From a bacterium (GTDB lineage: Bacteria; Bacillota_I; Bacilli_A; RF39; UBA660), in assembly GCA_963645945.1 (NCBI GenBank), contig CAVIUA010000024.1:8394-72393 (forward strand): 64,000 nucleotides of DNA. The letters run 5' to 3'. Both the position numbers and the translations under genes were made by a program. Position 1 is the first letter of the stretch, and every line of letters begins with the position of its first letter. The notes below the pieces were generated by a model. The model ran no database searches and was not told the origin of the DNA. It saw only the letters and a list, made by a program, of their open reading frames with translations. Positions 1 to 64,000 of this stretch are shown in pieces.

Positions 1-1449
1 TATTTTACAATGACACCAGATAGTTTCGATTACACTGCATTTATTTTAAAATATTATGTACCATATATTTTTGTGGCAAATACAACAGGTAAAATAGAAA
101 AAGTAGATGTCTATACACAACATAGTTATAGACCAGTAGTTAATCTTGCTAATTATATTTATTATGCATCAGGAACAGGTACAGCTGATGATCCATATAT
201 ACCAAAATTAGAATCAATTCCAGTATATCAATATACTTTAACTCCTGTACCGGATGATGCTTCAGTTACAATAAAAGTAAATGACGAAGTAGTAGCAGAA
301 GGAACAGGAGAAACAACAATATCAGCTAAATATAAAGATGTAATTACTTATACAGTTACAAAAGAAGGATATTTTAGCAAAACTGGAACATATACCATGG
401 GGAAAAAATCTCATCCTGAAACTGTAACATTAATTGAAAAAAGTCAAGTGCTATCTACTTATATTAAAAATATGTATGCCAATGCTGATGACAAAACAAA
501 ATATGGTATGACTAATACTTATGGATTCGAATATTCAGTATCAACAACAATACGAGATGATAAACTTGGTGGTACGGTCTCAACTCAAGGAAATTTAAGA
601 TTCTCCGGAACTAATCCAAATAACTATATTTATTTTAATTGCTCGGACTATTCTAATCAATCATCATCAACATGTGAGACATGGCGTATTATTGGAGTCT
701 TTGGTAACAAAGTGAAATTAGTTAGACAAACTTCTATTGGACAATACTCATGGGCAAGTAACTCAGGAACAACAATAAATAAATGGGAACCTGATTCTGC
801 AAATAATTATACTGGAGCAGCTATAATGAATTTACTAAATCCAGGATATGAGAATCTATCATCAAATAACAGTCTATATTGGAATGCTTCATCTGGTACT
901 TGTTATAATGGTGAAAACCTTTCAACAACAGCCTGTGATTTTACATCAACAGGATTGAAAAATGATACAACAAGAAATTTAATAAGTACAGAAACATATT
1001 ATCTATATAGTCCAGCAACAGGTGAATTATATGCTGACAAACTTTATGAACAAGAAAGAGGAACTGGTAGCCTTTATTCAGGTACTGATGATAGTCCTCC
1101 AATGACTAGATCTGGAACATGGGAAGGTAAAGTAGGACTTATATATCCGTCAGACCATGCTTATGCAACAACACCAAACGCATGTGCATTACCTCTATAC
1201 AACTGGAATTCATTATGTTTAAATCAAGACTGGCTAGCATATTCAGAGGAAGAAAGATTAATGACGCCATCATTCAAACAAGGTAGGGCCTGGTTTGCAA
1301 GAAAAATAGGTACATTAGCAGGACATGTTGGTTCTGGAGATGCAGCCGATGCTAAAAACATAAGACCGGTTTTATATTTGTATGAAAATCAAAAATTTAA
1401 ATCAGGTGATGGTACAGAAAGTAATCCTTACCAATTATTAGTAGAATAA
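1..1449 (+). CDS. Secreted/surface protein, C-terminal part (5' end lies outside the window); PEGA/Ig-like segment plus a Cys-rich beta module
   Basis: The frame is open from nt 1 (tat-ttt-aca precedes the ATG at 10), so ORF 10..1449 is probably a fragment of a larger gene. It has a PEGA-like stretch (YTLTPVPDDASVTIKVNDEVV...YTVTKEGY). The C-terminal module ends IRPVLYLYENQKFKSGDGTESNPYQLLVE. The same end-signature (YRPVVNL..GTGTADDPYIP) already occurs at nt 127-204. The protein is paralogous to the C-terminal half of 2007..5081. Confidence 0.6.
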   Translation, partial: YFTMTPDSFDYTAFILKYYVPYIFVANTTGKIEKVDVYTQHSYRPVVNLANYIYYASGTGTADDPYIPKLESIPVYQYTLTPVPDDASVTIKVNDEVVAEGTGETTISAKYKDVITYTVTKEGYFSKTGTYTMGKKSHPETVTLIEKSQVLSTYIKNMYANADDKTKYGMTNTYGFEYSVSTTIRDDKLGGTVSTQGNLRFSGTNPNNYIYFNCSDYSNQSSSTCETWRIIGVFGNKVKLVRQTSIGQYSWASNSGTTINKWEPDSANNYTGAAIMNLLNPGYENLSSNNSLYWNASSGTCYNGENLSTTACDFTSTGLKNDTTRNLISTETYYLYSPATGELYADKLYEQERGTGSLYSGTDDSPPMTRSGTWEGKVGLIYPSDHAYATTPNACALPLYNWNSLCLNQDWLAYSEEERLMTPSFKQGRAWFARKIGTLAGHVGSGDAADAKNIRPVLYLYENQKFKSGDGTESNPYQLLVE

Positions 1450-1475
1450 TATTAATATGTAAAAAAATAAACACA

Positions 1476-1503
1476 ACACAGACCTAAATGGCTCTGTGTT
1501 TTT
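1476..1503 (+). terminator. Rho-independent terminator after the surface-protein gene
   Basis: The stem aacacagacc / ggctctgtgtt is about 9 bp with one bulge, has loop taaat, and is followed by TTTT. The ORF-track start at 1496 lies inside this hairpin. Confidence 0.6.
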
Positions 1504-1519
1504 GAAAAAATTTAATTTA

Positions 1520-1837
1520 AAACTTACAAAACACGATATTGAACAAGGGACGGTAACTACTTCAAACCTTGATTCAATTTATCGTGAACAAAAAGGTGAG
1601 TGCTTTCTTCTTGAAATTATTCCACCAGAAACCTTTGCCTTTGCTATTAATGCTATTCAAAAGCGACCAGTAGTTATAACCAATGAAACTGGAAAAGACA
1701 AGATTGAAGTAAGACATATATTGCCAATCACAATCGCTATTGATCATCGAGTTCTTGACTATTCTGATGTTGTTCCATTAATGAGATAGTTTGATGAAAT
1801 ATTTGCTAATGCCAAAATTATTCAAAGTTGGAAATAG
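1520..1837 (+). pseudogene. Relic of the C-terminal catalytic domain of a 2-oxoacid dehydrogenase E2 (dihydrolipoamide acyltransferase)
   Basis: The translation GTVTTSNL...IIPPETFAFAINAIQKRPVV...IEVRHILPITIAIDHRVLDYSDV matches the E2 pattern GGTFTISNLG..INPPQ.AILG.G.I..RPVV...V...M.LSLS.DHR.IDGA. There is no lipoyl or E1/E3-binding part and no credible start. An in-frame TAG at 1787-1789 is followed by 15 more codons of E2-like tail (FDEIFANAKII). Confidence 0.5.
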
Positions 1838-2006
1838 AACTATATAGAAAAACATTTTATAAAAATAAGTGCACGTCTTTCAAAAAGATGTGCATTTTTA
1901 AATTCGAAGATATAAATCCTCGTAAAATAATATATTTTTTATACCGATATTGAAATTAAAGTAAATAAATGGTAAAATATAAATGTAAATAATAAGTAAA
2001 GGGTTA

Positions 2007-5000
2007 GTGATGAGAATGTTTAAAAAAAAGATAGCTAATTTAGTCATTAATCAATTACCTTTAGCAAAAAATAAAAAAAAATTACTATTAAGTTCTATTG
2101 TTTTGATAGGACTTTTAATAATGATTATAAATTCTTCATTTGCTAATCTAACACCAGTATCAAGTATAATTATACCTTCAACTACATTGTCATACGAAAG
2201 TAATGAAGAAGGTTCCTGGCAAATAACTAAAACAGCATCCTGGTTAAATAAAAGTAAAGCAAGAATTAATATAGAAGTAGATACAATTCAAAAAAGAAAA
2301 ACAGAATATACAGACATTGTATTAGTGTTAGATATCTCAGGTAGTATGCAAGGGAGTAAATTCATTAAAGTACAGGAATGCATAAATAGTCTAATAAGCG
2401 AAACAACTCAGAAAGGAAATAAAATTGCGTTAATTGCCTTCAATAATAATGCAACAATAGTTAATAATTTTACAACTGATACAAATACATTACAAACTAG
2501 CGTAACTAACTTAAAACCATCAGCTGGAGCAAACTATTATCAAGCACTAGTAAAAACTGGAGAATTATTAAGTTCATATACAAAAGAGGATAATAGAGAC
2601 TGCGTAATAATATTCTTAACAGATGGACTACCTACAATTGATACACCGAATGAAGTAGGTGAATACAATTATCTTAAAAACAAATATAATTATTTAGAAA
2701 TTATTGGTATTCAATATGAACAAGGAGATGAAGTTCTAGGAGCATTAAAAAACATAACTGATACACAATATATTACTGATAAAAATAACTTGAGTGAATA
2801 CCTAACAAAAGCCTCAACAACAACTTTATCTTATGATACTTTTGAATTAACAGATTACATTAATGAAGAATATTTTAATTTAAATAAAGATGCTACAGTA
2901 AATGTAACTTCTGGAGAAATAAGCATAAATAAAAATAAAATAATCTGGAATTTATCAGGACTAAAAACAGGAAATGCTGCATCACTTACAATGGATATAA
3001 ACTTAAATAGTGATTTAGTAGGAGTAGGAGGTACCTATTCAACTCATACACAAACGGATTTATCCTATAAAATAGATTCAACATCACAAACAGAATCGTC
3101 TAAAAAAACTACAGTATTGAAAGACAAATATACAGTAATATATAATGGAAATACTCCATTAGGTTGTACTGTATCAAATGTACCAAGTTCACGTAATTAT
3201 TTTGTATATGATACAGTTAAAATAGACGAAACAAATCCAGTATGTAATGGATACCAGTTTCAAGGATGGGAGATAGTTAATACCAATGTTAAAAAAATAA
3301 ATGAAAATGAATTCACTATGCCAGAAGAAAATGTAACCTTAATCGCAATATGGAAAAAATTAAGTATTATAAAAAATATAGATGGAACTGTATCCTCTGT
3401 TCCATCACTATATGAAAAAATTGCTAAAAAGACAAATGGATTAGATCAAAATATAGACTTTAGTGCTGTACCAAACAGTTCGGAATCTGGAGTCTATACC
3501 AGAAGTTCAACTTCAGAAGATATATATCCAGTATATTATTATCGTGGAAATGTTGATGACAACAATGTTCTATTTGCAGGACTTTGTTGGAAAATAGTAA
3601 GGACAACAAGTACTGGCGGAGTAAAACTCATTTATAATGGTTCATATGATGAGACAAACAAATGTAATAATACAGGAGAAAATAGTCAAATTTCACTTGG
3701 TGAATTTAATGCACAATATACAACAGCATCAGATGTAGGGTACATGTATGGTAAAAGATACGAATATAGTACTTATCAGTCACCAGGTGTTAATGTATTA
3801 ACAAGACATTCTAGTAGAAATACGACATATTATTATGCATCGTCTATTAGCTATTCATATTCATCAGGAACATATACTCTTGAAGAACCTTCTAAACAAT
3901 CTTGGACAGATAATTATAGCAATTTAATAGGATATTATACATGTTTAAACGAATCAACAACATGTACAAAAGTCTATTATGTAGTAGCAACAGATAACAC
4001 ATATCAGTACGATGTGAGTTTATCATCAGGATATACTAATCCAAACGAAGAAACAATTATTTTAGGTGAAAATATAATAGATAATGGTGATGGTACATAT
4101 TCTTTAGAAAATCCTACTTTAGTAAATAAGATAGACTGGTATAGCAATTACAATACTTATAAGAATTACTATATGTGCAAAGGATTAAGTACTACAACAT
4201 GTAATAACAAGTATCTTGTAACAGCAACAAGTAGTTATAGAATAACATATGATGATACAAATAATTATGTATATGGAAATGATGTATATTGGGATGGTTA
4301 TCAATATAAACTTGTAGATACATATAGTTCAACAAACTCCTGGTCAAAAGATAGAACAACTCTCGCTAAAAAATATCATTATACATGTCTTAATACAACA
4401 GGAAAATGTAGCCAAGTATATTATATTCAATACTTTGGTAGTAGTTCAGTTATATATTATTTAACAATGTCATCAGGTGAAAATATAGAAGATGTCAAAG
4501 AAAAAATGTTTACAAATATTTCTGATTCAACAATCAAAGAAGCATTAGATACCTGGTATAAAAACAACATGACTAGTTATACTGACAAACTCGAAGATAC
4601 CATCTGGTGTAATGATAGAACTATATATTCCGGGTCATTAGCTGGAAAAGATGTAAATGCCACAACTTCTTACTCTAGATTTAGTACATATAATAGAGTT
4701 TATATCGAACTTAATCCAACACTCTCTTGTTCTAATTTATCAAGAGACGGTTTCACAGTTTCTACAGATTCTGGAGGAAATGGTAAATTAACTTATCCGG
4801 CCGGACTACTAACAGTTGATGAAGTTATTTTAGCAGGAGCAACAAGTAAAACTAACACAGATTATTATCTATATTCAGATTCACAATATTGGCTTATGTC
4901 ACCGGCTGGATTTAGTACAAGTTTTCATTCTTGTACGTTTAATATCAATTCATATGGAACTTTGGCTAATAATCGTGTAGTAGGAAAATATGGAATAAGA

Positions 5001-5081
5001 CCTTCAATTTCCTTATCATCTGGAGTTAAGACATCAGGCGGTCTTGGAACGGTAGATGACCCATACGTAATTGACAGTTAA
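2007..5081 (+). CDS. Large membrane-anchored or secreted adhesin-like protein: N-terminal TM/signal anchor, VWA domain, Listeria-Bacteroides repeat, C-terminal Cys-rich module
   Basis: The signal anchor is KKKLLLSSIVLIGLLIMIINSSFA. The VWA domain has an intact MIDAS motif DISGSMQGSK (nt ~2313-2817) plus the LTDG motif. The Listeria-Bacteroides (Flg_new-type) repeat is KYTVIYNGN...GYQFQGWE...ENVTLIAIWKKL (nt 3126-3362). The C-terminus reads YWLMSPAG...GIRPSISLSSGVKTSGGLGTVDDPYVIDS. The start could be GTG 2007, ATG 2010 or ATG 2016. Confidence 0.8.
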   Translation: MMRMFKKKIANLVINQLPLAKNKKKLLLSSIVLIGLLIMIINSSFANLTPVSSIIIPSTTLSYESNEEGSWQITKTASWLNKSKARINIEVDTIQKRKTEYTDIVLVLDISGSMQGSKFIKVQECINSLISETTQKGNKIALIAFNNNATIVNNFTTDTNTLQTSVTNLKPSAGANYYQALVKTGELLSSYTKEDNRDCVIIFLTDGLPTIDTPNEVGEYNYLKNKYNYLEIIGIQYEQGDEVLGALKNITDTQYITDKNNLSEYLTKASTTTLSYDTFELTDYINEEYFNLNKDATVNVTSGEISINKNKIIWNLSGLKTGNAASLTMDINLNSDLVGVGGTYSTHTQTDLSYKIDSTSQTESSKKTTVLKDKYTVIYNGNTPLGCTVSNVPSSRNYFVYDTVKIDETNPVCNGYQFQGWEIVNTNVKKINENEFTMPEENVTLIAIWKKLSIIKNIDGTVSSVPSLYEKIAKKTNGLDQNIDFSAVPNSSESGVYTRSSTSEDIYPVYYYRGNVDDNNVLFAGLCWKIVRTTSTGGVKLIYNGSYDETNKCNNTGENSQISLGEFNAQYTTASDVGYMYGKRYEYSTYQSPGVNVLTRHSSRNTTYYYASSISYSYSSGTYTLEEPSKQSWTDNYSNLIGYYTCLNESTTCTKVYYVVATDNTYQYDVSLSSGYTNPNEETIILGENIIDNGDGTYSLENPTLVNKIDWYSNYNTYKNYYMCKGLSTTTCNNKYLVTATSSYRITYDDTNNYVYGNDVYWDGYQYKLVDTYSSTNSWSKDRTTLAKKYHYTCLNTTGKCSQVYYIQYFGSSSVIYYLTMSSGENIEDVKEKMFTNISDSTIKEALDTWYKNNMTSYTDKLEDTIWCNDRTIYSGSLAGKDVNATTSYSRFSTYNRVYIELNPTLSCSNLSRDGFTVSTDSGGNGKLTYPAGLLTVDEVILAGATSKTNTDYYLYSDSQYWLMSPAGFSTSFHSCTFNINSYGTLANNRVVGKYGIRPSISLSSGVKTSGGLGTVDDPYVIDS

Positions 5082-19477: not shown

Positions 19478-21040
19478 ATGAAATTATTTAATAAAGCAGA
19501 AAAAAAAGAAGTTTCTAATCAAGCACCAGCATCAGCTAATCAAGCCCCAACTTCTTCTGTTTCAAATAATACAGTTCAACAGCCAGCAGTAGCAACAACA
19601 CCAAGTCAGCCAAGTCAAAGTATTAATGCAACAGCAACGCCTAGTGTAATGTCCCAAGATAAAATTATGCCTCTTGTACAGGAAAATCAAAATAGTAAAC
19701 CAGCACCAAGCACTAGCAATAATAAAGCACAATTACCTAAATCAAATGCGAATCAAGCCACTACTACTGGTACTGCCAAACCAGGAGAAAAACAAGATGC
19801 AAATACAACTGATGAAAATCGTCCTAAAAGAAAATTAAAAGGTTACAGCTACGTAGTAATCAATTCAGTAAATAAAAAAGAAAAAGGATTTTTCGATGCC
19901 GAGTCAGAAGATGAAGTAAGGGCATTCTTAGAAGGCCAAGATTATCAAGTCCTAGAAGTAAAACCAAAATCAGCTATGGATATTGATATTACTGGAACAC
20001 CTAAATTAAAACCCGAAGATTTATCATTTACCTTGACACAGTTATCTACATATATAAAGTCTGGTATCCCTTTAGTTGACTCAGTCAGAATTCTAGCAAA
20101 ACAAGCCAAAAAACCAGCTCATAAAAAAATATATGGGCAAGTAGTTTATGAATTATTAAAAGGAGAAAGCTTTTCAATAGCTCTTGCTAATCAAGGAAAA
20201 GTCTTCCCACCATTATTAATAAACATGGTAAAAACATCTGAAATGACTGGTGACTTACCATCAATACTAGATGATATGGCCGAATATTATACATCTATGA
20301 ATCAAACAAGAAAACAAATGAAGAGTGCTATGACATATCCAATTGTTGTATTAACTATTGCCTTGGCCGTATTAGTCTTCATGTTAGTCTATCTTGTTCC
20401 ACAGTTTGCCAGTATGTTTGAGTCAAATGACGCTAAATTGCCAACTATTACACTAGTTGTATTAGGAATAAGTGACTTTATTCAAAATTACTATTTATAC
20501 CTAATTGGTGGATTTGTTGTAGTAATATTTATATTTAAATACTTACTTTCCCATGTACAGTCATTCAAATTAGCAGTGCAAACATTTCTTATGCATATGC
20601 CAGTACTTAGTAAAATAATTATCTATAATGAAATTGCTAACTTCACTAAGACATTTGCCTCATTATTAAATCATGGTGTATTCATAACAGATAGTATGGA
20701 AATATTATCTAAAATAACAGACAATGAAGTGTTCAAAAAAATAATTAATAAAACACTTGAAAATCTATCAAAAGGAGAACCTGTTTCAGCAGCCTTCCGT
20801 GGCGAATGGGCTATCCCTGTAGTTGCCTATGAAATGATAGTAACTGGTGAGAACACTGGACAATTAGGCCTAATGATGGAAAAAGTTTCTAACCATTTCC
20901 AAGCTATGCATAAAACAATAATTGATCAAATGAAAAGTTTAATGGAACCATTAATGATTGTTTTCTTAGCTGGAATTGTTGGTGTTATCTTACTTTCAAT
21001 TGTTACACCAATGTTTAGTATATATTCACAAATCGAGTAA
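19478..21040 (+). CDS. Type IV pilus / competence pseudopilus platform protein (GspF/PilC/ComGB family) with a low-complexity N-terminal extension of about 115 aa
   Basis: There are two T2SSF-type repeats (LSTYIKSGIPLVDSVRIL...MVKTSEMTGDL and FASLLNHGVFITDSMEIL...MIVTGENTGQL) and three TM segments. The usual PilC N-domain is YSYVVINSVNKKEKGFFDAESEDEVRAFLEGQDYQVLEV. It is preceded by a Q/P/S/T/N/A-rich tract. Confidence 0.85.
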   Translation: MKLFNKAEKKEVSNQAPASANQAPTSSVSNNTVQQPAVATTPSQPSQSINATATPSVMSQDKIMPLVQENQNSKPAPSTSNNKAQLPKSNANQATTTGTAKPGEKQDANTTDENRPKRKLKGYSYVVINSVNKKEKGFFDAESEDEVRAFLEGQDYQVLEVKPKSAMDIDITGTPKLKPEDLSFTLTQLSTYIKSGIPLVDSVRILAKQAKKPAHKKIYGQVVYELLKGESFSIALANQGKVFPPLLINMVKTSEMTGDLPSILDDMAEYYTSMNQTRKQMKSAMTYPIVVLTIALAVLVFMLVYLVPQFASMFESNDAKLPTITLVVLGISDFIQNYYLYLIGGFVVVIFIFKYLLSHVQSFKLAVQTFLMHMPVLSKIIIYNEIANFTKTFASLLNHGVFITDSMEILSKITDNEVFKKIINKTLENLSKGEPVSAAFRGEWAIPVVAYEMIVTGENTGQLGLMMEKVSNHFQAMHKTIIDQMKSLMEPLMIVFLAGIVGVILLSIVTPMFSIYSQIE

Positions 21041-21059
21041 TAATAAGGAGGATAATTAT

Positions 21060-21824
21060 ATGGAAATACTATATTTAATTATCTTTTTTATTTTAGGAAG
21101 TATTGTCGGTACAATTTCCACAATTTTAGGATTACGTATACCAAAGAAAGAAAAAATATTAGGAAATAAACTACACTGTGACTCTTGTAGTCATGAACTA
21201 ACTCGAAAAGAAACAGTTCCCTTATTTTCATACATAATTCAACAAGGAAGGTGCCGTCACTGTCATTCTAAAATAGATGTTTTATATCCATATATGGAAT
21301 TTTTCACAGGACTATTATTTTCTGTTTCATATTATAGTTTTGGCTTTAGTTACGAATTATTAATAGCCCTAGGAATTGTGACATTATTAATGATTGTCAC
21401 AGTTAGCGATTTAACATATTTAATAATACCAGATGAAGTCTTAATTTTCTTTAGTATTTATTTTCTAATAATTCAATTTCTAAACTCAGGATTAAAAGAA
21501 ACATTAATTCATTTTGCAACTGGTATACTACTTTTTTCAGTAATGTATTTAATTATGTTTATTGGAAATAAAGCTTTAAAAAAAGAAAGTCTTGGTGGAG
21601 GAGACATTAAAATGATGTTCTTATTTGGCTTAGTACTAGATCCTTTATTAGGAACAATTAGTATTTTTTTAGGCAGTCTTTTTGCTTTACCAATGTCTCT
21701 TCTTTTGATGAAAACGAATAATGAAAAAGTCATACCTTTTGGTCCTTTCTTACTAATAGCTTTTACATTTATATATTTTACTAAGATGACTTCTTTAGAT
21801 GTCTTAAAATTCTTAGGATTTTAG
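21060..21824 (+). CDS. Prepilin peptidase (A24 family, PilD/ComC)
   Basis: The zinc-ribbon-like motif is CDSCSHEL...CRHCHSKI. The protein is polytopic with catalytic-region motifs IPDE and GGGDIKMM. ATG 21060 sits behind an AAGGAGG RBS. The ORF-track start 20976 overlaps pilC. Confidence 0.85.
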   Translation: MEILYLIIFFILGSIVGTISTILGLRIPKKEKILGNKLHCDSCSHELTRKETVPLFSYIIQQGRCRHCHSKIDVLYPYMEFFTGLLFSVSYYSFGFSYELLIALGIVTLLMIVTVSDLTYLIIPDEVLIFFSIYFLIIQFLNSGLKETLIHFATGILLFSVMYLIMFIGNKALKKESLGGGDIKMMFLFGLVLDPLLGTISIFLGSLFALPMSLLLMKTNNEKVIPFGPFLLIAFTFIYFTKMTSLDVLKFLGF

Positions 21825-61027: not shown

Positions 61028-61312
61028 ATGGAAGAGTTAATAGAAAAAATAGAAAAATTAAAAAAAGAACTTGATAATACTGAACAAGTTCAAAAAATAA
61101 AAGAATTAAATAAAAAAATCAAAGAATGTGAAGAACTTCATAAAAAAATACAAAAATATCATGATACGCATAGTGAAAAAATAAAAGAGGAGATTTATAA
61201 AAATAACTTATATCAAGAATATAAAAGATCTGAAACAGAACTTAATATATTAATTTTACAAATAAATAATGAATTAAAGAAAATAAATAACAAGGGTAAG
61301 TGTGGCTTATGA
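61028..61312 (+). CDS. Small coiled-coil protein, YlbF/YmcA-like by position
   Basis: The call rests on its position between ylbE and rsmD as in B. subtilis, its helical K/E-rich sequence and its Cys-containing end (GKCGL). Sequence similarity is weak. Confidence 0.4.
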   Translation: MEELIEKIEKLKKELDNTEQVQKIKELNKKIKECEELHKKIQKYHDTHSEKIKEEIYKNNLYQEYKRSETELNILILQINNELKKINNKGKCGL

Positions 61313-61854
61313 AAGTAATTTCAGGTATTTATAAAGGAAGAACTATAAAAGGATATGACATGGATGGAACTAGACCAACAATGGATAGAGTAAAAGAAAG
61401 TCTTTTTGCAACAATTCAAGATGAAATAAAAGATAGCGTTATTTTAGATTTATTTTCAGGTACTGGTTCGCTAGCTATAGAGTCACTTAGTCAAGGAGCA
61501 AAAACCGCTTACGCTATCGATAAAAGTAAAGAAGCTATAAAAACAATTAACGAAAATATTAAAACAATAGGAGTAAATAACTGTAAAGCTATCATGTCCG
61601 ATTATAAAAGTGCCATAATAAGTTTTAAAAATCAACAACTTAAATTTGATATAGTATTTTTAGATCCACCATATAAAACAGATTATATTGAAAAAAGCCT
61701 AAATTTAATAATTGAAAATGATATTTTAAAAGATACTGGTCTAATAGTTTGTGAGACTGATGATTTAGATAAAATAATTTATCCAGAATCTTTAAAAGAA
61801 GTAAAGTCAAAAAAATATGGTGATATTAGGGTAGTTATATTAGAAAAAATATGA
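61309..61854 (+). CDS. rsmD: 16S rRNA (guanine966-N2)-methyltransferase RsmD
   Basis: Motifs are VISGIYKGR.I, TRPTMDRVKESLF, LDLFSGTGSLAIES and FLDPPY. An ATGA overlap links it to the previous gene. The ORF-track GTG 61300 is less likely. Confidence 0.85.
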   Translation: MKVISGIYKGRTIKGYDMDGTRPTMDRVKESLFATIQDEIKDSVILDLFSGTGSLAIESLSQGAKTAYAIDKSKEAIKTINENIKTIGVNNCKAIMSDYKSAIISFKNQQLKFDIVFLDPPYKTDYIEKSLNLIIENDILKDTGLIVCETDDLDKIIYPESLKEVKSKKYGDIRVVILEKI

Positions 61855-61891
61855 TAAAATATCAATAGAATAGAGAGTTTAGGTGATTCTA

Positions 61892-63958
61892 ATGAAATTG
61901 AATAATAAGGGTTTCGCAATATCTACAGTTTTATATTCACTACTAATCATGGTTTTTTTAATTGTTACATTAATGATGAGTATAATGGCTTCTAATCGTA
62001 AGTCCAATCGTAATTTAGTCACAACTATAGAAGATGAATTAAATAGGTATAGTGAAAGTGCAACTACCATAGCTTTTAATGATGCTTCGCCAAACGATTA
62101 TCAGACATATACAGTACCCTTTGGTCAATCTGGCTGGTATAAAATAGAACTCTGGGGTGCATCAGGTGGAAGCACAGATACAAAATCAGGTGGAAAAGGT
62201 GCATATACATCTGGTCTGATTTATTTAACCGATAATCAAAAGCTTTATTTTTATATAGGTGGAACTACAAATAGTACTGCTGGTGGTGCAAACGGTGGTG
62301 GTACCGGTGCTGGAACAGGAAAAGGTGGCGGTGGAGCAACTGATGTTAGAACATTATCAGGTGAATGGAACAATACTGATTCTTTAAAAACCAGAATAAT
62401 GGTTGCTGCAGGTGGCGGTGGAGCTGATGGCTTTAATGGTGGAGCCGACGGTGGTGATGCTGGTGCTTTAATAGGAATGCCCGGTAAAAGTAACATTACA
62501 TCGAGTAATTACACCAATGCCGGATATGGAAGTCAAAAAGGACCAATTATTATAAGTAAATTAGGTAACGCAGGCATTGTAAAACATTGCAATTCTGGCT
62601 ATATAACTGATGATGTACAAGGAAACATAAAAAAGGCCTGTGGTAAATTAGGAATAGGTGGCTACGCAACAAACGGTGAAGGCGGAGGCGGCGGTTCTGG
62701 TTATTTTGGAGGCGGTGCCGGCTCTTCAGATAATAGTACTGTTGCAGGTTCAGGCGCAGGTGGCTCATCATTTATAGCTGGATATTCAGGCGTTTTATAT
62801 AGCTATAAATGGTCTGATGTATCTGATAGTGATATTACAGGCTATGTAGGTGAAACATATTATACTGAAACTTCTAGGTACTTTATAAATGGCCAAATGA
62901 TAGAAGGCATAAATGAAGGAAATGGTAAGGCTAGAATAGAACTAGTGTCTACTGCATCACAAGAAACCAAACCAGCTGTTAAAAATAACAAATTAAATAA
63001 TGTCCGATATATTAAAAGCTGTACATCTGGAACAGTTGATGATCAAAATAACATTACCTGGTCAGAATTGGTAGCAATGCAAAATGGAGTTAATATAGCG
63101 TCTAACAAAAGTGTAAAAAATGTATCTGGTGCTACAATGTCATCAGAAAAGAAAAATGCAATTGATGGTGATGCAGAAACATTATATACTGGTACAAGAA
63201 ATACATCATCAAGTACTAGTGCTTGTATTACAATAGATTTAGGTTCAGTACAAAATTTAGATGAAATATCCGTACATCATAATCCAACAGTTGCTTCCAA
63301 GAAAAGTTACAAAGAAAGTTTACAAGTATCATCAGATAATAGTACCTGGGTAACTTTAATATCTTCAGAAGGTGAAGGATTACCAGAAAGTTCTTCTGGA
63401 ATTAGATACACAGCATGGGATTTAGATTATCAAGCTTCTTTGCCAAATGGAATATACCAAATTCAGTCAGCTTTATCTCAAGTTAGTAGAGGTTTATCAG
63501 CCGTTAACAACAATACTGGACAACAAGAAAGTGAAAATGCTGATACTCTATATTCCGAACGACATGTTAAACTTGCTTTACTTGGTACACAAAATCTATC
63601 ACAAGAATGGGCACTTACTTATTTGGGAACAAGTACCAATAATGATATATATAGATTAGTTGAAACAGCATCAAACCATGCACTCCAAATAAAAGATAGT
63701 AAAGGAACAGCTGGTACTGCTGTAAATACTTCATCTGGATATGGAAGTTATGATGAGGTTGTGGAACAAGCAGGATATAACTGGACACAATGGCACATAA
63801 CTTCACTTGGCGACGGAACATATACAATTAAAGCTGATATCGGAGGAAATTGTCTTTCCACTACAGTCAATAACTACAACACAGATTCTGATATTAATAT
63901 AAACACCTGTAATAATTCCATACAACAACGTTGGATTTTTAAAGTAGCAAGTTTTTAA
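61892..63958 (+). CDS. Modular pilin-like protein: prepilin-type N-terminus, ALK/LTK-type glycine-rich domain, F5/8 type C (discoidin) domain and ricin-B (beta-trefoil) lectin
   Basis: The N-terminus is MKLNNKG|FAISTVLYSLLIMVFLIVTLMM (a class III signal-like sequence with no Glu at +5). The glycine-rich domain reads GWYKIELWGASGG...GGKGAYTSG.IYL...KLYFYIGG...GGGGATDVR...RIMVAAGGGGADG...GGGGGSGYFGGGAG...GKARIELVS (nt ~62090-62950). The discoidin domain has AIDGDAETLY...CITIDLGSVQNLDEISVHH...LQVSSDNSTWVTL. Three QxW repeats follow (QEW, TQW, QQRW). ATG 61892 sits behind an AGGTGA RBS. Confidence 0.7.
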   Translation: MKLNNKGFAISTVLYSLLIMVFLIVTLMMSIMASNRKSNRNLVTTIEDELNRYSESATTIAFNDASPNDYQTYTVPFGQSGWYKIELWGASGGSTDTKSGGKGAYTSGLIYLTDNQKLYFYIGGTTNSTAGGANGGGTGAGTGKGGGGATDVRTLSGEWNNTDSLKTRIMVAAGGGGADGFNGGADGGDAGALIGMPGKSNITSSNYTNAGYGSQKGPIIISKLGNAGIVKHCNSGYITDDVQGNIKKACGKLGIGGYATNGEGGGGGSGYFGGGAGSSDNSTVAGSGAGGSSFIAGYSGVLYSYKWSDVSDSDITGYVGETYYTETSRYFINGQMIEGINEGNGKARIELVSTASQETKPAVKNNKLNNVRYIKSCTSGTVDDQNNITWSELVAMQNGVNIASNKSVKNVSGATMSSEKKNAIDGDAETLYTGTRNTSSSTSACITIDLGSVQNLDEISVHHNPTVASKKSYKESLQVSSDNSTWVTLISSEGEGLPESSSGIRYTAWDLDYQASLPNGIYQIQSALSQVSRGLSAVNNNTGQQESENADTLYSERHVKLALLGTQNLSQEWALTYLGTSTNNDIYRLVETASNHALQIKDSKGTAGTAVNTSSGYGSYDEVVEQAGYNWTQWHITSLGDGTYTIKADIGGNCLSTTVNNYNTDSDININTCNNSIQQRWIFKVASF

Positions 63959-63959
63959 T

Positions 63960-63988
63960 AAGAGTATTTTACATAGTACTCTTTTTTC
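63960..63988 (+). terminator. Rho-independent terminator
   Basis: aagagta-(10-nt loop)-tactctt followed by T6. Confidence 0.65.
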
Positions 63989-64000
63989 TTTTAAAAATAT

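What the first reader, a model, noticed from the sequence alone, without database searches (positions are those of the whole stretch)
61892..63958. Pilin-like N-terminus grafted onto an ALK/LTK-type glycine-rich domain, a discoidin domain and a ricin-B lectin
The first 35 residues have a short basic leader ending in Gly, then Phe and about 22 hydrophobic residues. That looks like a class III (prepilin) signal lacking Glu+5, as seen in some minor pilins. Next comes a domain of about 290 aa whose blocks match the glycine-rich (polyglycine-II helix) domain best known from the animal ALK/LTK receptor ectodomains: Y.IELWGASGG, GGKGAY.SG.IYL....LYFYIGG, GGGGATDVR, RIMVAAGGGGADG and GGGGGSGYFGGGAG. 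A galactose-binding-like discoidin domain and a three-repeat QxW beta-trefoil follow. 'Modular pilins' that display lectin or vWA modules at the pilus surface are established in Streptococcus sanguinis. This would be a much larger module set, with two carbohydrate-binding domains and a rare glycine-rich fold. The window also contains a prepilin peptidase at 21060.
Basis: partly seen in the sequence, partly recalled or inferred. Interest (0 to 1): 0.65.

Follow-up and report, generated by a model that had tools for sequence, protein, structure and literature searches.

The report
Stripped-down pilin carrying glycine-rich lectin adhesin
An uncultured, small-genome gut bacterium encodes a 688-residue surface protein whose front end looks like a minimal type IV pilus subunit lacking the usual glutamate, and whose body joins an ALK-receptor-type glycine-rich domain to two sugar-binding domains; it is most likely a sticky cap for a pilus, an unusual variant of the known 'modular pilin' design.

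Summary
Window 61892-63958 (+) is one intact ORF of 688 aa with a good ribosome-binding site. Pfam finds ALK_LTK_GRD (E 5.6e-35), F5/8 type C and a ricin-type beta-trefoil. An AlphaFold2 model (pTM 0.82) matches LTK/ALK glycine-rich domains and beta-trefoil lectins.

The N-terminus (MKLNNKG|FAIST..., Thr at +5) is missed by N_methyl/TIGR02532, but several results point to a degenerate class III (prepilin) signal:
- It is the best-conserved part of the protein (82% mean identity, against 41-55% for the other domains).
- The G|F junction is invariant in about 240 relatives while the leader length varies.
- The NNKG leader is the one used by this genome's own canonical pilins.
- It aligns in register with those pilins (hhalign 92%).
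- Related Bacilli carry the same glycine-rich domain on canonical GFTLIE pilins, one of them inside a pilB/pilC/pilD locus.

The gene sits at a conserved rsmD-X-hrcA locus. In about a quarter of the related genomes that have it, it encodes only a 55-67 aa product: leader, helix and a short tail. PilD is present in 149 of 151 genomes of the order.

Cleavage and pilus incorporation are untested, and a plain membrane anchor remains a live rival. Verdict: a new variant of the modular pilin design. Pilin-GRD fusions are already listed in a published dataset.

The parts
61881..61886 (+). Ribosome-binding site AGGTGA, 5 nt upstream of the ATG
   Evidence: Read directly from the sequence. It sets ATG 61892, not GTG 61883, as the start.
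61892..61912 (+). Leader peptide MKLNNKG (7 aa), ending in the invariant Gly at -1. Proposed to be removed by the prepilin peptidase.
   Evidence: the G|F junction is invariant in about 240 homologues while leader length varies from 6 to 19 aa. The same NNKG motif is found in this genome's canonical pilins.
61913..62050 (+). Pilin-like alpha-1 helix, FAISTVLYSLLIMVFLIVTLMMSIMASNRKSNRNLVTTIEDELNRY. It has Thr at +5 in place of Glu. A hydrophobic tract is followed by an amphipathic part.
   Evidence: AF2 predicts a helix over residues 6-50. This is the most conserved region of the protein, at 82% mean identity. hhalign against canonical pilin N-termini gives 91.8%, in register. 449 clusters in 1.84 billion representative proteins share it.
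62126..62944 (+). ALK/LTK-type glycine-rich (polyglycine-II) domain, residues 79-351
   Evidence: Pfam PF12810, E 5.6e-35. The top Foldseek hits are the LTK TG domain 7nx1 and the ALK GRD 7lrz, E about 1e-8, probability 1.0.
63137..63370 (+). Discoidin / F5-F8 type C (galactose-binding-like) domain core, residues 416-493. AF2 strands suggest the whole domain spans about 365-510.
   Evidence: PF22633 at 35.3 bits and PF00754 at 30.9 bits, both above their cut-offs. The AF2 beta-sandwich has pLDDT of about 85-95.
63569..63955 (+). Ricin-B-type beta-trefoil lectin, about residues 560-688, with QEW (571), WTQW (631-634) and QRW (679)
   Evidence: PF14200 at 25.6 bits, exactly at its cut-off. Foldseek beta-trefoil hits include ThreeFoil 3pg0, SSA 2x2s and CNL 3nbe, with target-normalised TM of about 0.75.
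19478..21040 (+). pilC (T2SSF platform protein, 520 aa, with a low-complexity N-terminal extension)
   Evidence: PF00482, E 3.4e-54. NCBIfam GspF/PilC hits.
21057..21824 (+). pilD prepilin peptidase, the only A24 peptidase found in the genome and the proposed processing enzyme
   Evidence: A24_N_bact E 4.1e-24 and Peptidase_A24 E 5.2e-11. There is a single PF01478 match in the genome.
61300..61854 (+). rsmD (16S rRNA methyltransferase), the conserved upstream neighbour. hrcA-grpE-dnaK-dnaJ follow just beyond the window end.
   Evidence: PF03602, E 3.7e-52. rsmD-X-hrcA synteny is seen in about 25 related loci.

Best explanation
The gene encodes a non-canonical modular minor pilin of a minimal type IV / Com-like filament.

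**Proposed mechanism (inferred).**
1. The precursor inserts into the membrane through its hydrophobic N-terminus.
2. The genome's single prepilin peptidase (PilD, window ~21057-21824) cuts after Gly7 of MKLNNKG|FAIST.
3. The ~45-residue alpha-1 helix enters the filament core, which is assembled by PilB (on another contig) and PilC (window 19478-21040).
4. The subunit lacks Glu5, which normally neutralises the N-terminus of the next subunit above it. It also carries about 640 residues of bulky passenger. Both features predict that it is the first subunit assembled and so sits at the pilus tip.
5. At the tip it displays an ALK-type glycine-rich domain, a discoidin domain and a ricin-B beta-trefoil, acting as a glycan or surface adhesin.

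**Shown:** the ORF, the domains, the fold, the conservation pattern, the machinery genes, and canonical pilin-GRD fusions in relatives.

**Inferred:** PilD cleavage, incorporation into the filament, tip position, and sugar binding.
For: **N-terminal junction and leader**
- G-1/F+1 are invariant and +5 is T/S/A in 145 of 145 representative clusters. The leader varies from 6 to 19 aa while the junction stays fixed.
- The leader NNKG equals that of this genome's canonical pilins: NNKG|FTLIE (three pilins), NDKG|FTLIE, NNKG|ISTIE and NCKG|FVLVE.

**Conservation and similarity to pilins**
- The N-terminal 53 residues are the most conserved part: 82% mean identity, against 55%, 41% and 46% for the three passenger domains. 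This conserved alpha-1 with a variable body is the pattern seen in pilins.
- hhalign against the lineage's canonical pilin N-termini gives 91.8% probability, in register at KG|F, with a shared S/N-R-K motif after the hydrophobic tract.
- AF2 predicts a single long helix over residues 6-50, followed by well-folded domains.

**The same passenger on canonical pilins**
- Eight proteins from related uncultured Bacilli combine PF07963 N_methyl with PF12810 GRD. L090 also carries a discoidin domain. L068 lies beside pilB, pilC and pilD.
- Raynaud et al. 2021 list IPR012902-PF12810 architectures.

**The module as a carrier**
- It also carries other passengers (RicinB, GBS_Bsp, dockerin, discoidin) and exists alone as a 55-67 aa product at the same rsmD-hrcA locus. 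This fits a self-sufficient carrier.

**Machinery**
- PilB, PilC and PilD are present in this genome. PilD is present in 149 of 151 genomes of the order and in 93 of the 95 that have the module.
- This protein is the only pilin-like protein in the genome that lacks Glu5.

**Precedent**
- S. sanguinis PilA and GspK have degenerate, Glu5-less class 3 signals that PilFind cannot see, and they cap the filament (PMC9934059).
Against: - PF07963, TIGR02532 and all NCBIfam pilin models miss the protein. ComGE reaches only E 0.22.
- There is no Glu5, no Pro22, and no alpha-beta pilin head between the helix and the GRD.
- The gene is isolated between rsmD and hrcA, not in a pilus operon.
- The module is absent from 56 of 151 genomes of the order even though nearly all of them have PilD, so it is not an obligatory pilus component.
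- Profile similarity between hydrophobic helices is easily inflated.
- A second GRD protein in this genome (contig C8, 622 aa) uses an unrelated N-terminal anchor or signal, so GRDs are not pilus-specific.
- No expression, cleavage or localisation data could be obtained.
Confidence: 0.6

Rival explanations
1. It is an ordinary membrane-anchored surface lectin. The N-terminal hydrophobic helix would be an uncleaved signal-anchor (N-in, C-out) that tethers the GRD, discoidin and ricin ectodomain to the cytoplasmic membrane. It would be independent of PilD and of any filament. The conserved NNKGF and SNR...ELNRY residues would then serve membrane insertion, oligomerisation, or contact with some other partner.
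For: - No pilin model detects the N-terminus.
- There is no pilin head domain.
- The gene lies in a housekeeping locus away from pilus genes.
- The module is missing from about 37% of genomes that keep PilD.
- The hydrophobic stretch is about 26 residues, long enough to span a membrane.
- Another GRD protein in this genome uses a different anchor.
- An earlier first-stage note on a homologue (e1-1456615) read it as signal-anchored.
Against: - A plain anchor does not explain an invariant Gly-Phe junction at a fixed distance from a short basic leader of variable length.
- It does not explain identity of the leader motif with the genome's real prepilins.
- It does not explain why the cytoplasmic and transmembrane part is far more conserved than the ectodomain.
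- It does not explain stand-alone 55-67 aa versions, which would anchor nothing.
- It does not explain why the same passenger domain is repeatedly found on canonical pilins in relatives.
Confidence: 0.3
2. It is a PilD-processed surface or secreted protein that is not a filament subunit. The class III signal would serve only as an export and processing tag, as it does for archaeal sugar-binding proteins cleaved by PibD. The mature protein would stay membrane- or wall-associated, or form small bundles, rather than capping a pilus.
For: The evidence for PilD recognition is the same as for the best explanation. Pilin head contacts are lacking. The gene is not in the pilus operon. The module is dispensable in many PilD-positive genomes.
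Against: The amphipathic alpha-1C segment (LVxxIEEELNRY) is also strongly conserved, beyond what a cleavage tag needs. Canonical GRD-bearing minor pilins sit inside pilus loci in relatives. Non-filament use of class III signals is established knowledge for Archaea, not for Bacilli.
Confidence: 0.07
3. It is a Sec-dependent secreted lectin. The N-terminus would be a classical signal peptide cut by signal peptidase I near IMA|S (residues 31-34), releasing a soluble GRD-lectin protein.
For: The sequence I-M-A|S could pass as an AxA-like site.
Against: - The hydrophobic region is about 26 residues, far longer than Sec signal H-regions.
- The putative -1/-3 positions are not conserved in homologues: SAMQT, STMSS, SIMSF.
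- Signal peptides are normally the least conserved part of a protein, whereas here this region is the most conserved.
Confidence: 0.03

Closest known systems
Modular type IV pilins of Streptococcus sanguinis: PilB (vWA module) and PilC (lectin module). Raynaud et al. 2021, PMC8179133; Shahin et al. 2023, PMC9934059.
   Same: An N-terminal class III-type signal and alpha-1 helix carries large adhesive or lectin modules, and tip display on a monoderm type IV pilus is proposed. Dataset S1 of the 2021 paper already lists IPR012902-PF12810, IPR012902-IPR000421 and IPR012902-IPR000772 architectures.
   Different: PilB and PilC have canonical signals with Glu5, a small pilin module, and are encoded in the pil operon. 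This protein has Thr5, is invisible to IPR012902-type models, has no pilin head, combines three passenger domains, and is encoded between rsmD and hrcA.
Glu5-less capping or priming minor pilins: GspK and the K subunits of HIJK complexes, S. sanguinis PilA, and ComGG of Com pili
   Same: All have a degenerate class III signal without Glu5 that bioinformatic tools miss (PilA), and all are predicted to be the first or top subunit of the filament. This protein is the only Glu5-less pilin-like protein in its genome.
   Different: Those proteins have a folded pilin head (a GspI-like or GspK-like fold) and lie in minor-pilin operons. No sequence or profile match to ComGG, PilX_N or GspK was obtained here. 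The resemblance of FAISTVLY to GspK-type N-termini rests on my recollection only.
Canonical N_methyl + ALK_LTK_GRD pilins of related uncultured Bacilli (loci L040, L051, L066, L067, L068, L071, L085, L090)
   Same: They carry the same glycine-rich passenger, and L090 also carries a discoidin domain. They come from the same broad group of gut Bacilli. L068 lies in a pilC-pilD ... pilB locus.
   Different: They have GFTLIE-type signals with Glu5 and about 150-880 residues of pilin or Ig-like spacer before the GRD. This protein joins the GRD directly to a Glu5-less helix.
ALK/LTK receptor glycine-rich (TG/GRD) domains, e.g. PDB 7nx1, 7lrz, 7n00
   Same: There is a Pfam PF12810 match (E 5.6e-35), and these are the top Foldseek hits (E about 1e-8).
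   Different: These are animal cytokine-receptor ectodomains that bind ALKAL ligands. Sequence identity is only 14-19%, and nothing here suggests a related ligand. The bacterial function is unknown, and an adhesive scaffold is my presumption.
Alpha-1-only pilins (Geobacter PilA-N of about 61 aa; Flp pilins of Tad systems)
   Same: The 55-67 aa homologues at the same locus consist only of a leader, the alpha-1 helix and a short tail, like these headless pilins.
   Different: There is no Glu5 and no Flp 'G/xxxxEY' motif. This genome's Tad-like locus (contig C15) has its own 53-aa Flp-like gene.

Membership tests
Type IV pilin / class III (prepilin) signal peptide | Short hydrophilic, basic leader ending in Gly or Ala | tested here: met
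   The leader is MKLNNKG. Gly7 is invariant in the homologues.
Type IV pilin / class III (prepilin) signal peptide | About 21 hydrophobic residues after the cleavage site, forming the N-terminal half of an alpha-1 helix of about 50 residues | tested here: met
   About 26 hydrophobic residues follow Phe8. AF2 predicts one helix over residues 6-50.
Type IV pilin / class III (prepilin) signal peptide | Glu at position 5 of the mature protein | tested here: not met
   Position 5 is Thr. It is T/S/A in all 145 representative clusters and never E. The known exceptions (GspK, PilA, ComGG) are capping subunits.
Type IV pilin / class III (prepilin) signal peptide | Recognition by the N_methyl motif models (PF07963 / TIGR02532 / IPR012902) | tested here: not met
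   There is no hit at E <= 1 in Pfam or NCBIfam, and the protein is not among the six PF07963 matches in the genome.
Type IV pilin / class III (prepilin) signal peptide | Globular alpha-beta pilin head packed on alpha-1C | tested here: not met
   In the AF2 model the helix ends at residue 50 and the strands of the GRD begin at residue 57, with no intervening pilin sheet. Some homologues are only 55-67 aa long.
Type IV pilin / class III (prepilin) signal peptide | Prepilin peptidase and assembly machinery (ATPase, platform) present in the genome | tested here: met
   PilD and PilC are in the window. PilB is on contig C16. No PilT, PilM or PilN was found, in a genome estimated to be 92.5% complete.
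Type IV pilin / class III (prepilin) signal peptide | Cleavage and N-methylation by the prepilin peptidase, and polymerisation into a filament | not testable with these tools
   This needs biochemistry and imaging.
ALK_LTK_GRD (PF12810) glycine-rich domain | Profile match above the gathering score, and a polyglycine-II / TNF-like fold | tested here: met
   The Pfam score is 121.9 bits against a 24.5 cut-off. The top 14 Foldseek hits are LTK/ALK GRD structures with probability 1.0, and the model pLDDT is about 90 over the domain.
F5/8 type C (discoidin) domain | Profile match above the gathering score | tested here: met
   PF22633 scores 35.3 (cut-off 27.8) and PF00754 scores 30.9 (cut-off 28.2). 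Both matches cover only part of the model.
Ricin-B-type beta-trefoil lectin | Three-fold beta-trefoil with (QxW)3 repeats | tested here: met
   PF14200 scores exactly at its cut-off (25.6) and PF00652 falls below its own. The fold match to trefoil lectins has a target-normalised TM of about 0.75. Two QxW motifs and one WTQW are present. Sugar binding itself was not tested.

The most novel reading that the evidence does not exclude
The NNKG|FA(I/V)(S/T)(T/S)xLYGL...SNR...IEEELNRY module would define an unrecognised subclass of type IV pilin. It would be a headless, Glu5-less, alpha-1-only 'stalk' that current pilin models miss. It is found in 449 protein clusters (50% identity), and in 95 of the 151 sampled genomes of one order of reduced-genome gut Bacilli.

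On this reading the module is the priming or capping subunit of a minimal PilB-PilC-PilD filament that has no PilM, PilN or PilT. It would also act as a general carrier. The same conserved locus (rsmD-X-hrcA) encodes either the bare 55-67 aa stalk or the stalk fused to interchangeable adhesive passengers (GRD, discoidin, ricin-B, Bsp repeats, dockerin). The tip adhesin could then be swapped without touching the assembly machinery.
Probability: 0.35. Interest if true: 0.7.

Novelty: new variant of a known kind. Interest (0 to 1): 0.5.

Why it matters
- **Hidden pilins.** Censuses of modular pilins start from the IPR012902 motif, so they cannot see this family. If the N-terminus really is a PilD substrate, hundreds of adhesin-like proteins in uncultured, small-genome gut Bacilli are hidden pilins.
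- **A minimal carrier.** The family would show how little of a pilin is needed to carry a passenger: a bare alpha-1 helix without Glu5.
- **An assayable role for the bacterial GRD.** It would give the bacterial ALK-type glycine-rich domain a concrete, testable role as a pilus-displayed binding module. This domain is otherwise studied only in animal receptors.
- **Attachment in an uncultured lineage.** The organisms have 0.6-1.6 Mb genomes and are presumably dependent on their surroundings, yet almost all keep PilD. A tip-displayed lectin would be a plausible way for them to attach to host glycans, food particles or partner cells.

Tried and rejected
1. **Pilin profile scans** (PF07963, TIGR02532, ComG families, PilX_N) on the protein and the genome gave no significant hit for this ORF. 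This is reported as a failed membership feature, not as proof against the reading, because PilA of S. sanguinis is equally invisible to such tools.
2. **Is ORF1 at the window start the same kind of protein?** No. Its N-terminus lies upstream of the window and is a different 'GYSALSTTLNVSG' type.
3. **Could the module be the pilin of the Tad-like locus on contig C15?** Rejected. That locus has its own 53-aa Flp-like gene, and the module lacks the Flp motif.
4. **Could the conserved N-terminus be a PilN-like PilM-binding anchor?** No PilM or PilN was detected, and the motif matches prepilin leaders instead.
5. **Could the 55-67 aa homologues be artefacts of TGA recoding or truncated contigs?** Five of the six examined end in TAA or TAG. 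All six lie inside contigs, between rsmD and the next gene. Most carry a conserved Cys-x(4-7)-Cys tail.
6. **Is the module universal in the order, as an essential pilus part would be?** No. It is in 95 of 151 genomes, and in the four genomes without it that were examined the rsmD locus continues with other genes.
7. **Promoter and terminator scan around the gene:** nothing above shuffled background.
9. **Literature search for a described bacterial GRD function or for pili in this lineage:** nothing specific found.
Full report
**1. What is there**

Window 61892-63958 (+) is one uninterrupted ORF of 688 codons. An AGGTGA Shine-Dalgarno sequence at 61881-61886 sits 5 nt before ATG 61892, so the leader is MKLNNKG and the alternative GTG at 61883 is not the start. 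The window is part of a 1.32-Mb, 48-contig, about 29% G+C assembly, estimated 92.5% complete. The gene lies between rsmD (61300-61854; PF03602) and hrcA-grpE-dnaK-dnaJ, which begin just past the window end.

**2. Domains**

- Pfam finds ALK_LTK_GRD at residues 79-351 (E 5.6e-35).
- It finds F5_F8_type_C_2 and F5_F8_type_C at 416-493, both above their gathering scores.
- It finds RicinB_lectin_2 exactly at its cut-off.
- An AlphaFold2 model built on 35 homologues has mean pLDDT 83.8 and pTM 0.82. It shows one long helix (residues 6-50) followed directly by beta-rich domains.
- In a Foldseek search of the PDB, the top 14 hits are LTK/ALK TG/GRD structures (7nx1, 7lrz, 7n00 and others; E about 1e-8, probability 1.0). 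Beta-trefoil lectins follow, with target-normalised TM of about 0.75.
- The trefoil carries QEW (571), WTQW (631-634) and QRW (679).

**3. The N-terminus**

No pilin model detects it. There is no PF07963 or TIGR02532 hit at E <= 1, ComGE reaches only E 0.22, and the protein is not among the six N_methyl matches in the genome. The comparative picture nevertheless fits a pilin.

- *Invariant junction.* In 120 close homologues and 145 representative clusters, found with the 62-residue N-terminus alone among 1.84 billion representative proteins (449 clusters at E <= 1e-3), the Gly-Phe junction is invariant. Position +5 is T, S or A and never E. The leader upstream varies from 6 to 19 residues.
- *Most conserved region.* The first 53 residues average 82% identity, against 55% (GRD), 41% (discoidin) and 46% (trefoil).
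- *Shared leader.* The same genome encodes six canonical pilins (two tandem 192/193-aa pilins; 197, 204 and 385 aa; and a 1196-aa modular pilin). Their leaders are NNKG|FTLIE, NDKG|FTLIE, NNKG|ISTIE and NCKG|FVLVE, which is the same leader motif.
- *Profile comparison.* A profile-profile comparison with canonical pilin N-termini of the lineage gives 91.8% probability. The alignment is in register at KG|F, with a 3-residue gap before a shared S/N-R-K motif. I treat this as supportive only, because hydrophobic helices score easily.

**4. The passenger domain on true pilins**

Among loci fetched from species-representative genomes, eight proteins from related uncultured Bacilli combine an N_methyl motif with one to three ALK_LTK_GRD domains.
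- L090 adds a discoidin domain, which is nearly the architecture of the protein studied here.
- In L068 the GRD-bearing minor pilin follows a second minor pilin, and the pair is transcribed divergently from pilB, with pilC-pilD a few kb away.
- In the present genome the equivalent position next to pilB holds a 204-aa minor pilin without a GRD.
- Raynaud et al. 2021 list IPR012902-PF12810 (three proteins), IPR012902-IPR000421 and IPR012902-IPR000772 in their Dataset S1. They also list a PF12810-containing PilY1 architecture in Dataset S2.

Display of GRDs and lectins on pilins therefore already appears in a published dataset of architectures, although I found no specific discussion of it.

**5. 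The module as a carrier**

- Of 145 representative clusters with this N-terminus, 99 carry a GRD. Others carry ricin-B, GBS Bsp-like repeats, dockerin or discoidin domains, or nothing recognisable.
- In 151 genomes of the same order (0.6-1.6 Mb each), 95 have the module and 149 have a prepilin peptidase.
- The rsmD-X-hrcA arrangement is conserved in about 25 loci, down to about 44% RsmD identity.
- In roughly 22 of the 95 genomes the gene at this locus encodes only 55-90 residues: the leader, the helix, and a short tail that often holds two cysteines. Five of the six examined end in TAA or TAG and all six lie inside contigs, so they are not recoding or assembly artefacts.
- In the four genomes without the module that were examined, the rsmD locus continues with other genes. 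One of them has a canonical 858-aa modular pilin 0.7 kb from rsmD.

**6. The machinery**

- PilC and PilD are in the window, and PilB is on contig C16.
- No PilT, PilM or PilN was found, and ComEC is present.
- The filament machine thus looks minimal and Com-like, within the limits of an incomplete assembly.
- A separate Tad-like locus on contig C15 has its own Flp-like gene.

**7. Interpretation**

The most economical reading is a Glu5-less, headless modular minor pilin. The leader would be removed by PilD, the conserved alpha-1 helix would be buried in the filament core, and the three binding domains would be exposed.

In studied systems, subunits that lack Glu5 (GspK, S. sanguinis PilA) are invisible to prediction tools, are assembled first, and cap the filament (PMC9934059). 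This protein is the only Glu5-less pilin-like protein in its genome, and its bulky passenger also argues for a tip position.

Cleavage, incorporation into a filament and glycan binding are all inferred. The main rival is a plain signal-anchor. That reading is favoured by the failed profile tests, the missing head domain, the housekeeping locus and the patchy distribution. It does not explain the invariant junction, the leader shared with true prepilins, the extreme conservation of the cytoplasmic and membrane part, or the stand-alone 60-residue forms. I put the pilin reading at about 0.6, the anchor at about 0.3, and PilD-processed non-filament display or Sec secretion at about 0.1 together.

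**8. Novelty**

Modular pilins are established, and GRD, discoidin and ricin passengers on canonical pilins are already listed in a published dataset. What is new is the carrier:
- It is a large family (449 clusters at 50% identity) that IPR012902-based censuses cannot see.
- It has no Glu5 and no pilin head.
- It sits at a fixed housekeeping locus.
- It exists both bare and fused to passengers.

An earlier follow-up in this scan, on a homologue in another genome (e1-1254177), reached the same general reading. That is not independent evidence, but I re-derived its main claims here. This report adds the headless forms, the canonical GRD pilins including one beside pilB, pilC and pilD, and the order-wide counts. 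I classify the finding as a new variant of a known kind, of moderate interest.

Noticed in passing
window 19478-21824; PilB on genome contig C16:7736-9511: The type IV filament genes are scattered. The pilC-pilD pair sits among housekeeping genes. pilB, with two divergently transcribed minor pilins, is on another contig. The major pilins (C41), a 385-aa pilin (C42) and a 1196-aa pilin (C30) lie elsewhere. PilC has a Q/P/S/T-rich N-terminal extension of about 115 aa, and PilB has a P/T/V-rich C-terminal tail of about 160 aa.
   Followed up: partly
genome contig C30:10150-13740 (-), outside the window: This is a 1196-aa canonical modular pilin (NNKG|FTLIEILAAV). It contains at least six repeats of an Ig-like unit marked by 'KVKID.TAP.VTM'. 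It is much larger than the protein studied here and is a clear modular pilin in the same genome.
   Followed up: no
window 1-1449 (ORF1; full length C24:7149-9842, 897 aa); genome contig C8:11210-13078 (622 aa) and C8:8323-8910 (195 aa): A second recurrent N-terminal type was seen: a basic stretch, a hydrophobic helix, then 'GYSA(L/S)S(T/S)(T/S)L(N/A)(V/I)(S/N)G'. It occurs on ORF1, on a second glycine-rich-domain protein and on a 195-aa protein. It resembles TasA/SipW-type signal peptides from memory. Pfam finds nothing in ORF1.
   Followed up: no
window 1-1449, window 2007-5081, and genome contig C5:19-243: Three proteins end with a similar C-terminal module, '...G(I/T)RP(S/V).(S/Y)L...G(D/L)GT...(N/D)PY.(I/L)...'. 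The 1024-aa protein also has a vWA domain and Listeria-Bacteroides repeats. They are probably a family of surface adhesins with a shared, unannotated C-terminal domain.
   Followed up: no
L091-L096 (G067, G043, G106, G029, G007, G024), between rsmD and hrcA: These loci hold stand-alone 55-67 aa genes that encode only the NNKG|FAIST leader, the helix and a short tail, usually with two cysteines (for example ...NKCVNPDSTDCTATLP, ...NTCVLDGSC). They are possible alpha-1-only mini-pilins.
   Followed up: partly
genome contig C15:11700-22200 (-): This is a Tad-like or conjugation-like cluster. It holds a 583-aa T2SSE-family ATPase with a long P/T/V/Q-rich tail, two TadB/C-like membrane proteins, a CpaB-like protein, a 53-aa Flp-like ORF (MKAATG|ELNLTVITLIAIAAV) and a 968-aa Cys-rich secreted protein.
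   Followed up: no
L100 (G033:C29:4750-8800), 1218-3794 (+): G033 lacks the NNKG|FAIST module. In it, a canonical 858-aa modular pilin (KRA|FTLIELLAIIII) lies 0.7 kb downstream of rsmD. The locus may have been re-used, or this may be coincidence.
   Followed up: no
window 62001-64000: G+C rises to 36%, against about 25-32% in the rest of the window. Runs of GGN glycine codons inside the GRD are the likely cause. The antisense strand of this stretch gives an 81-aa proline-rich ORF (62251-62496, -), which is a compositional artefact.
   Followed up: partly
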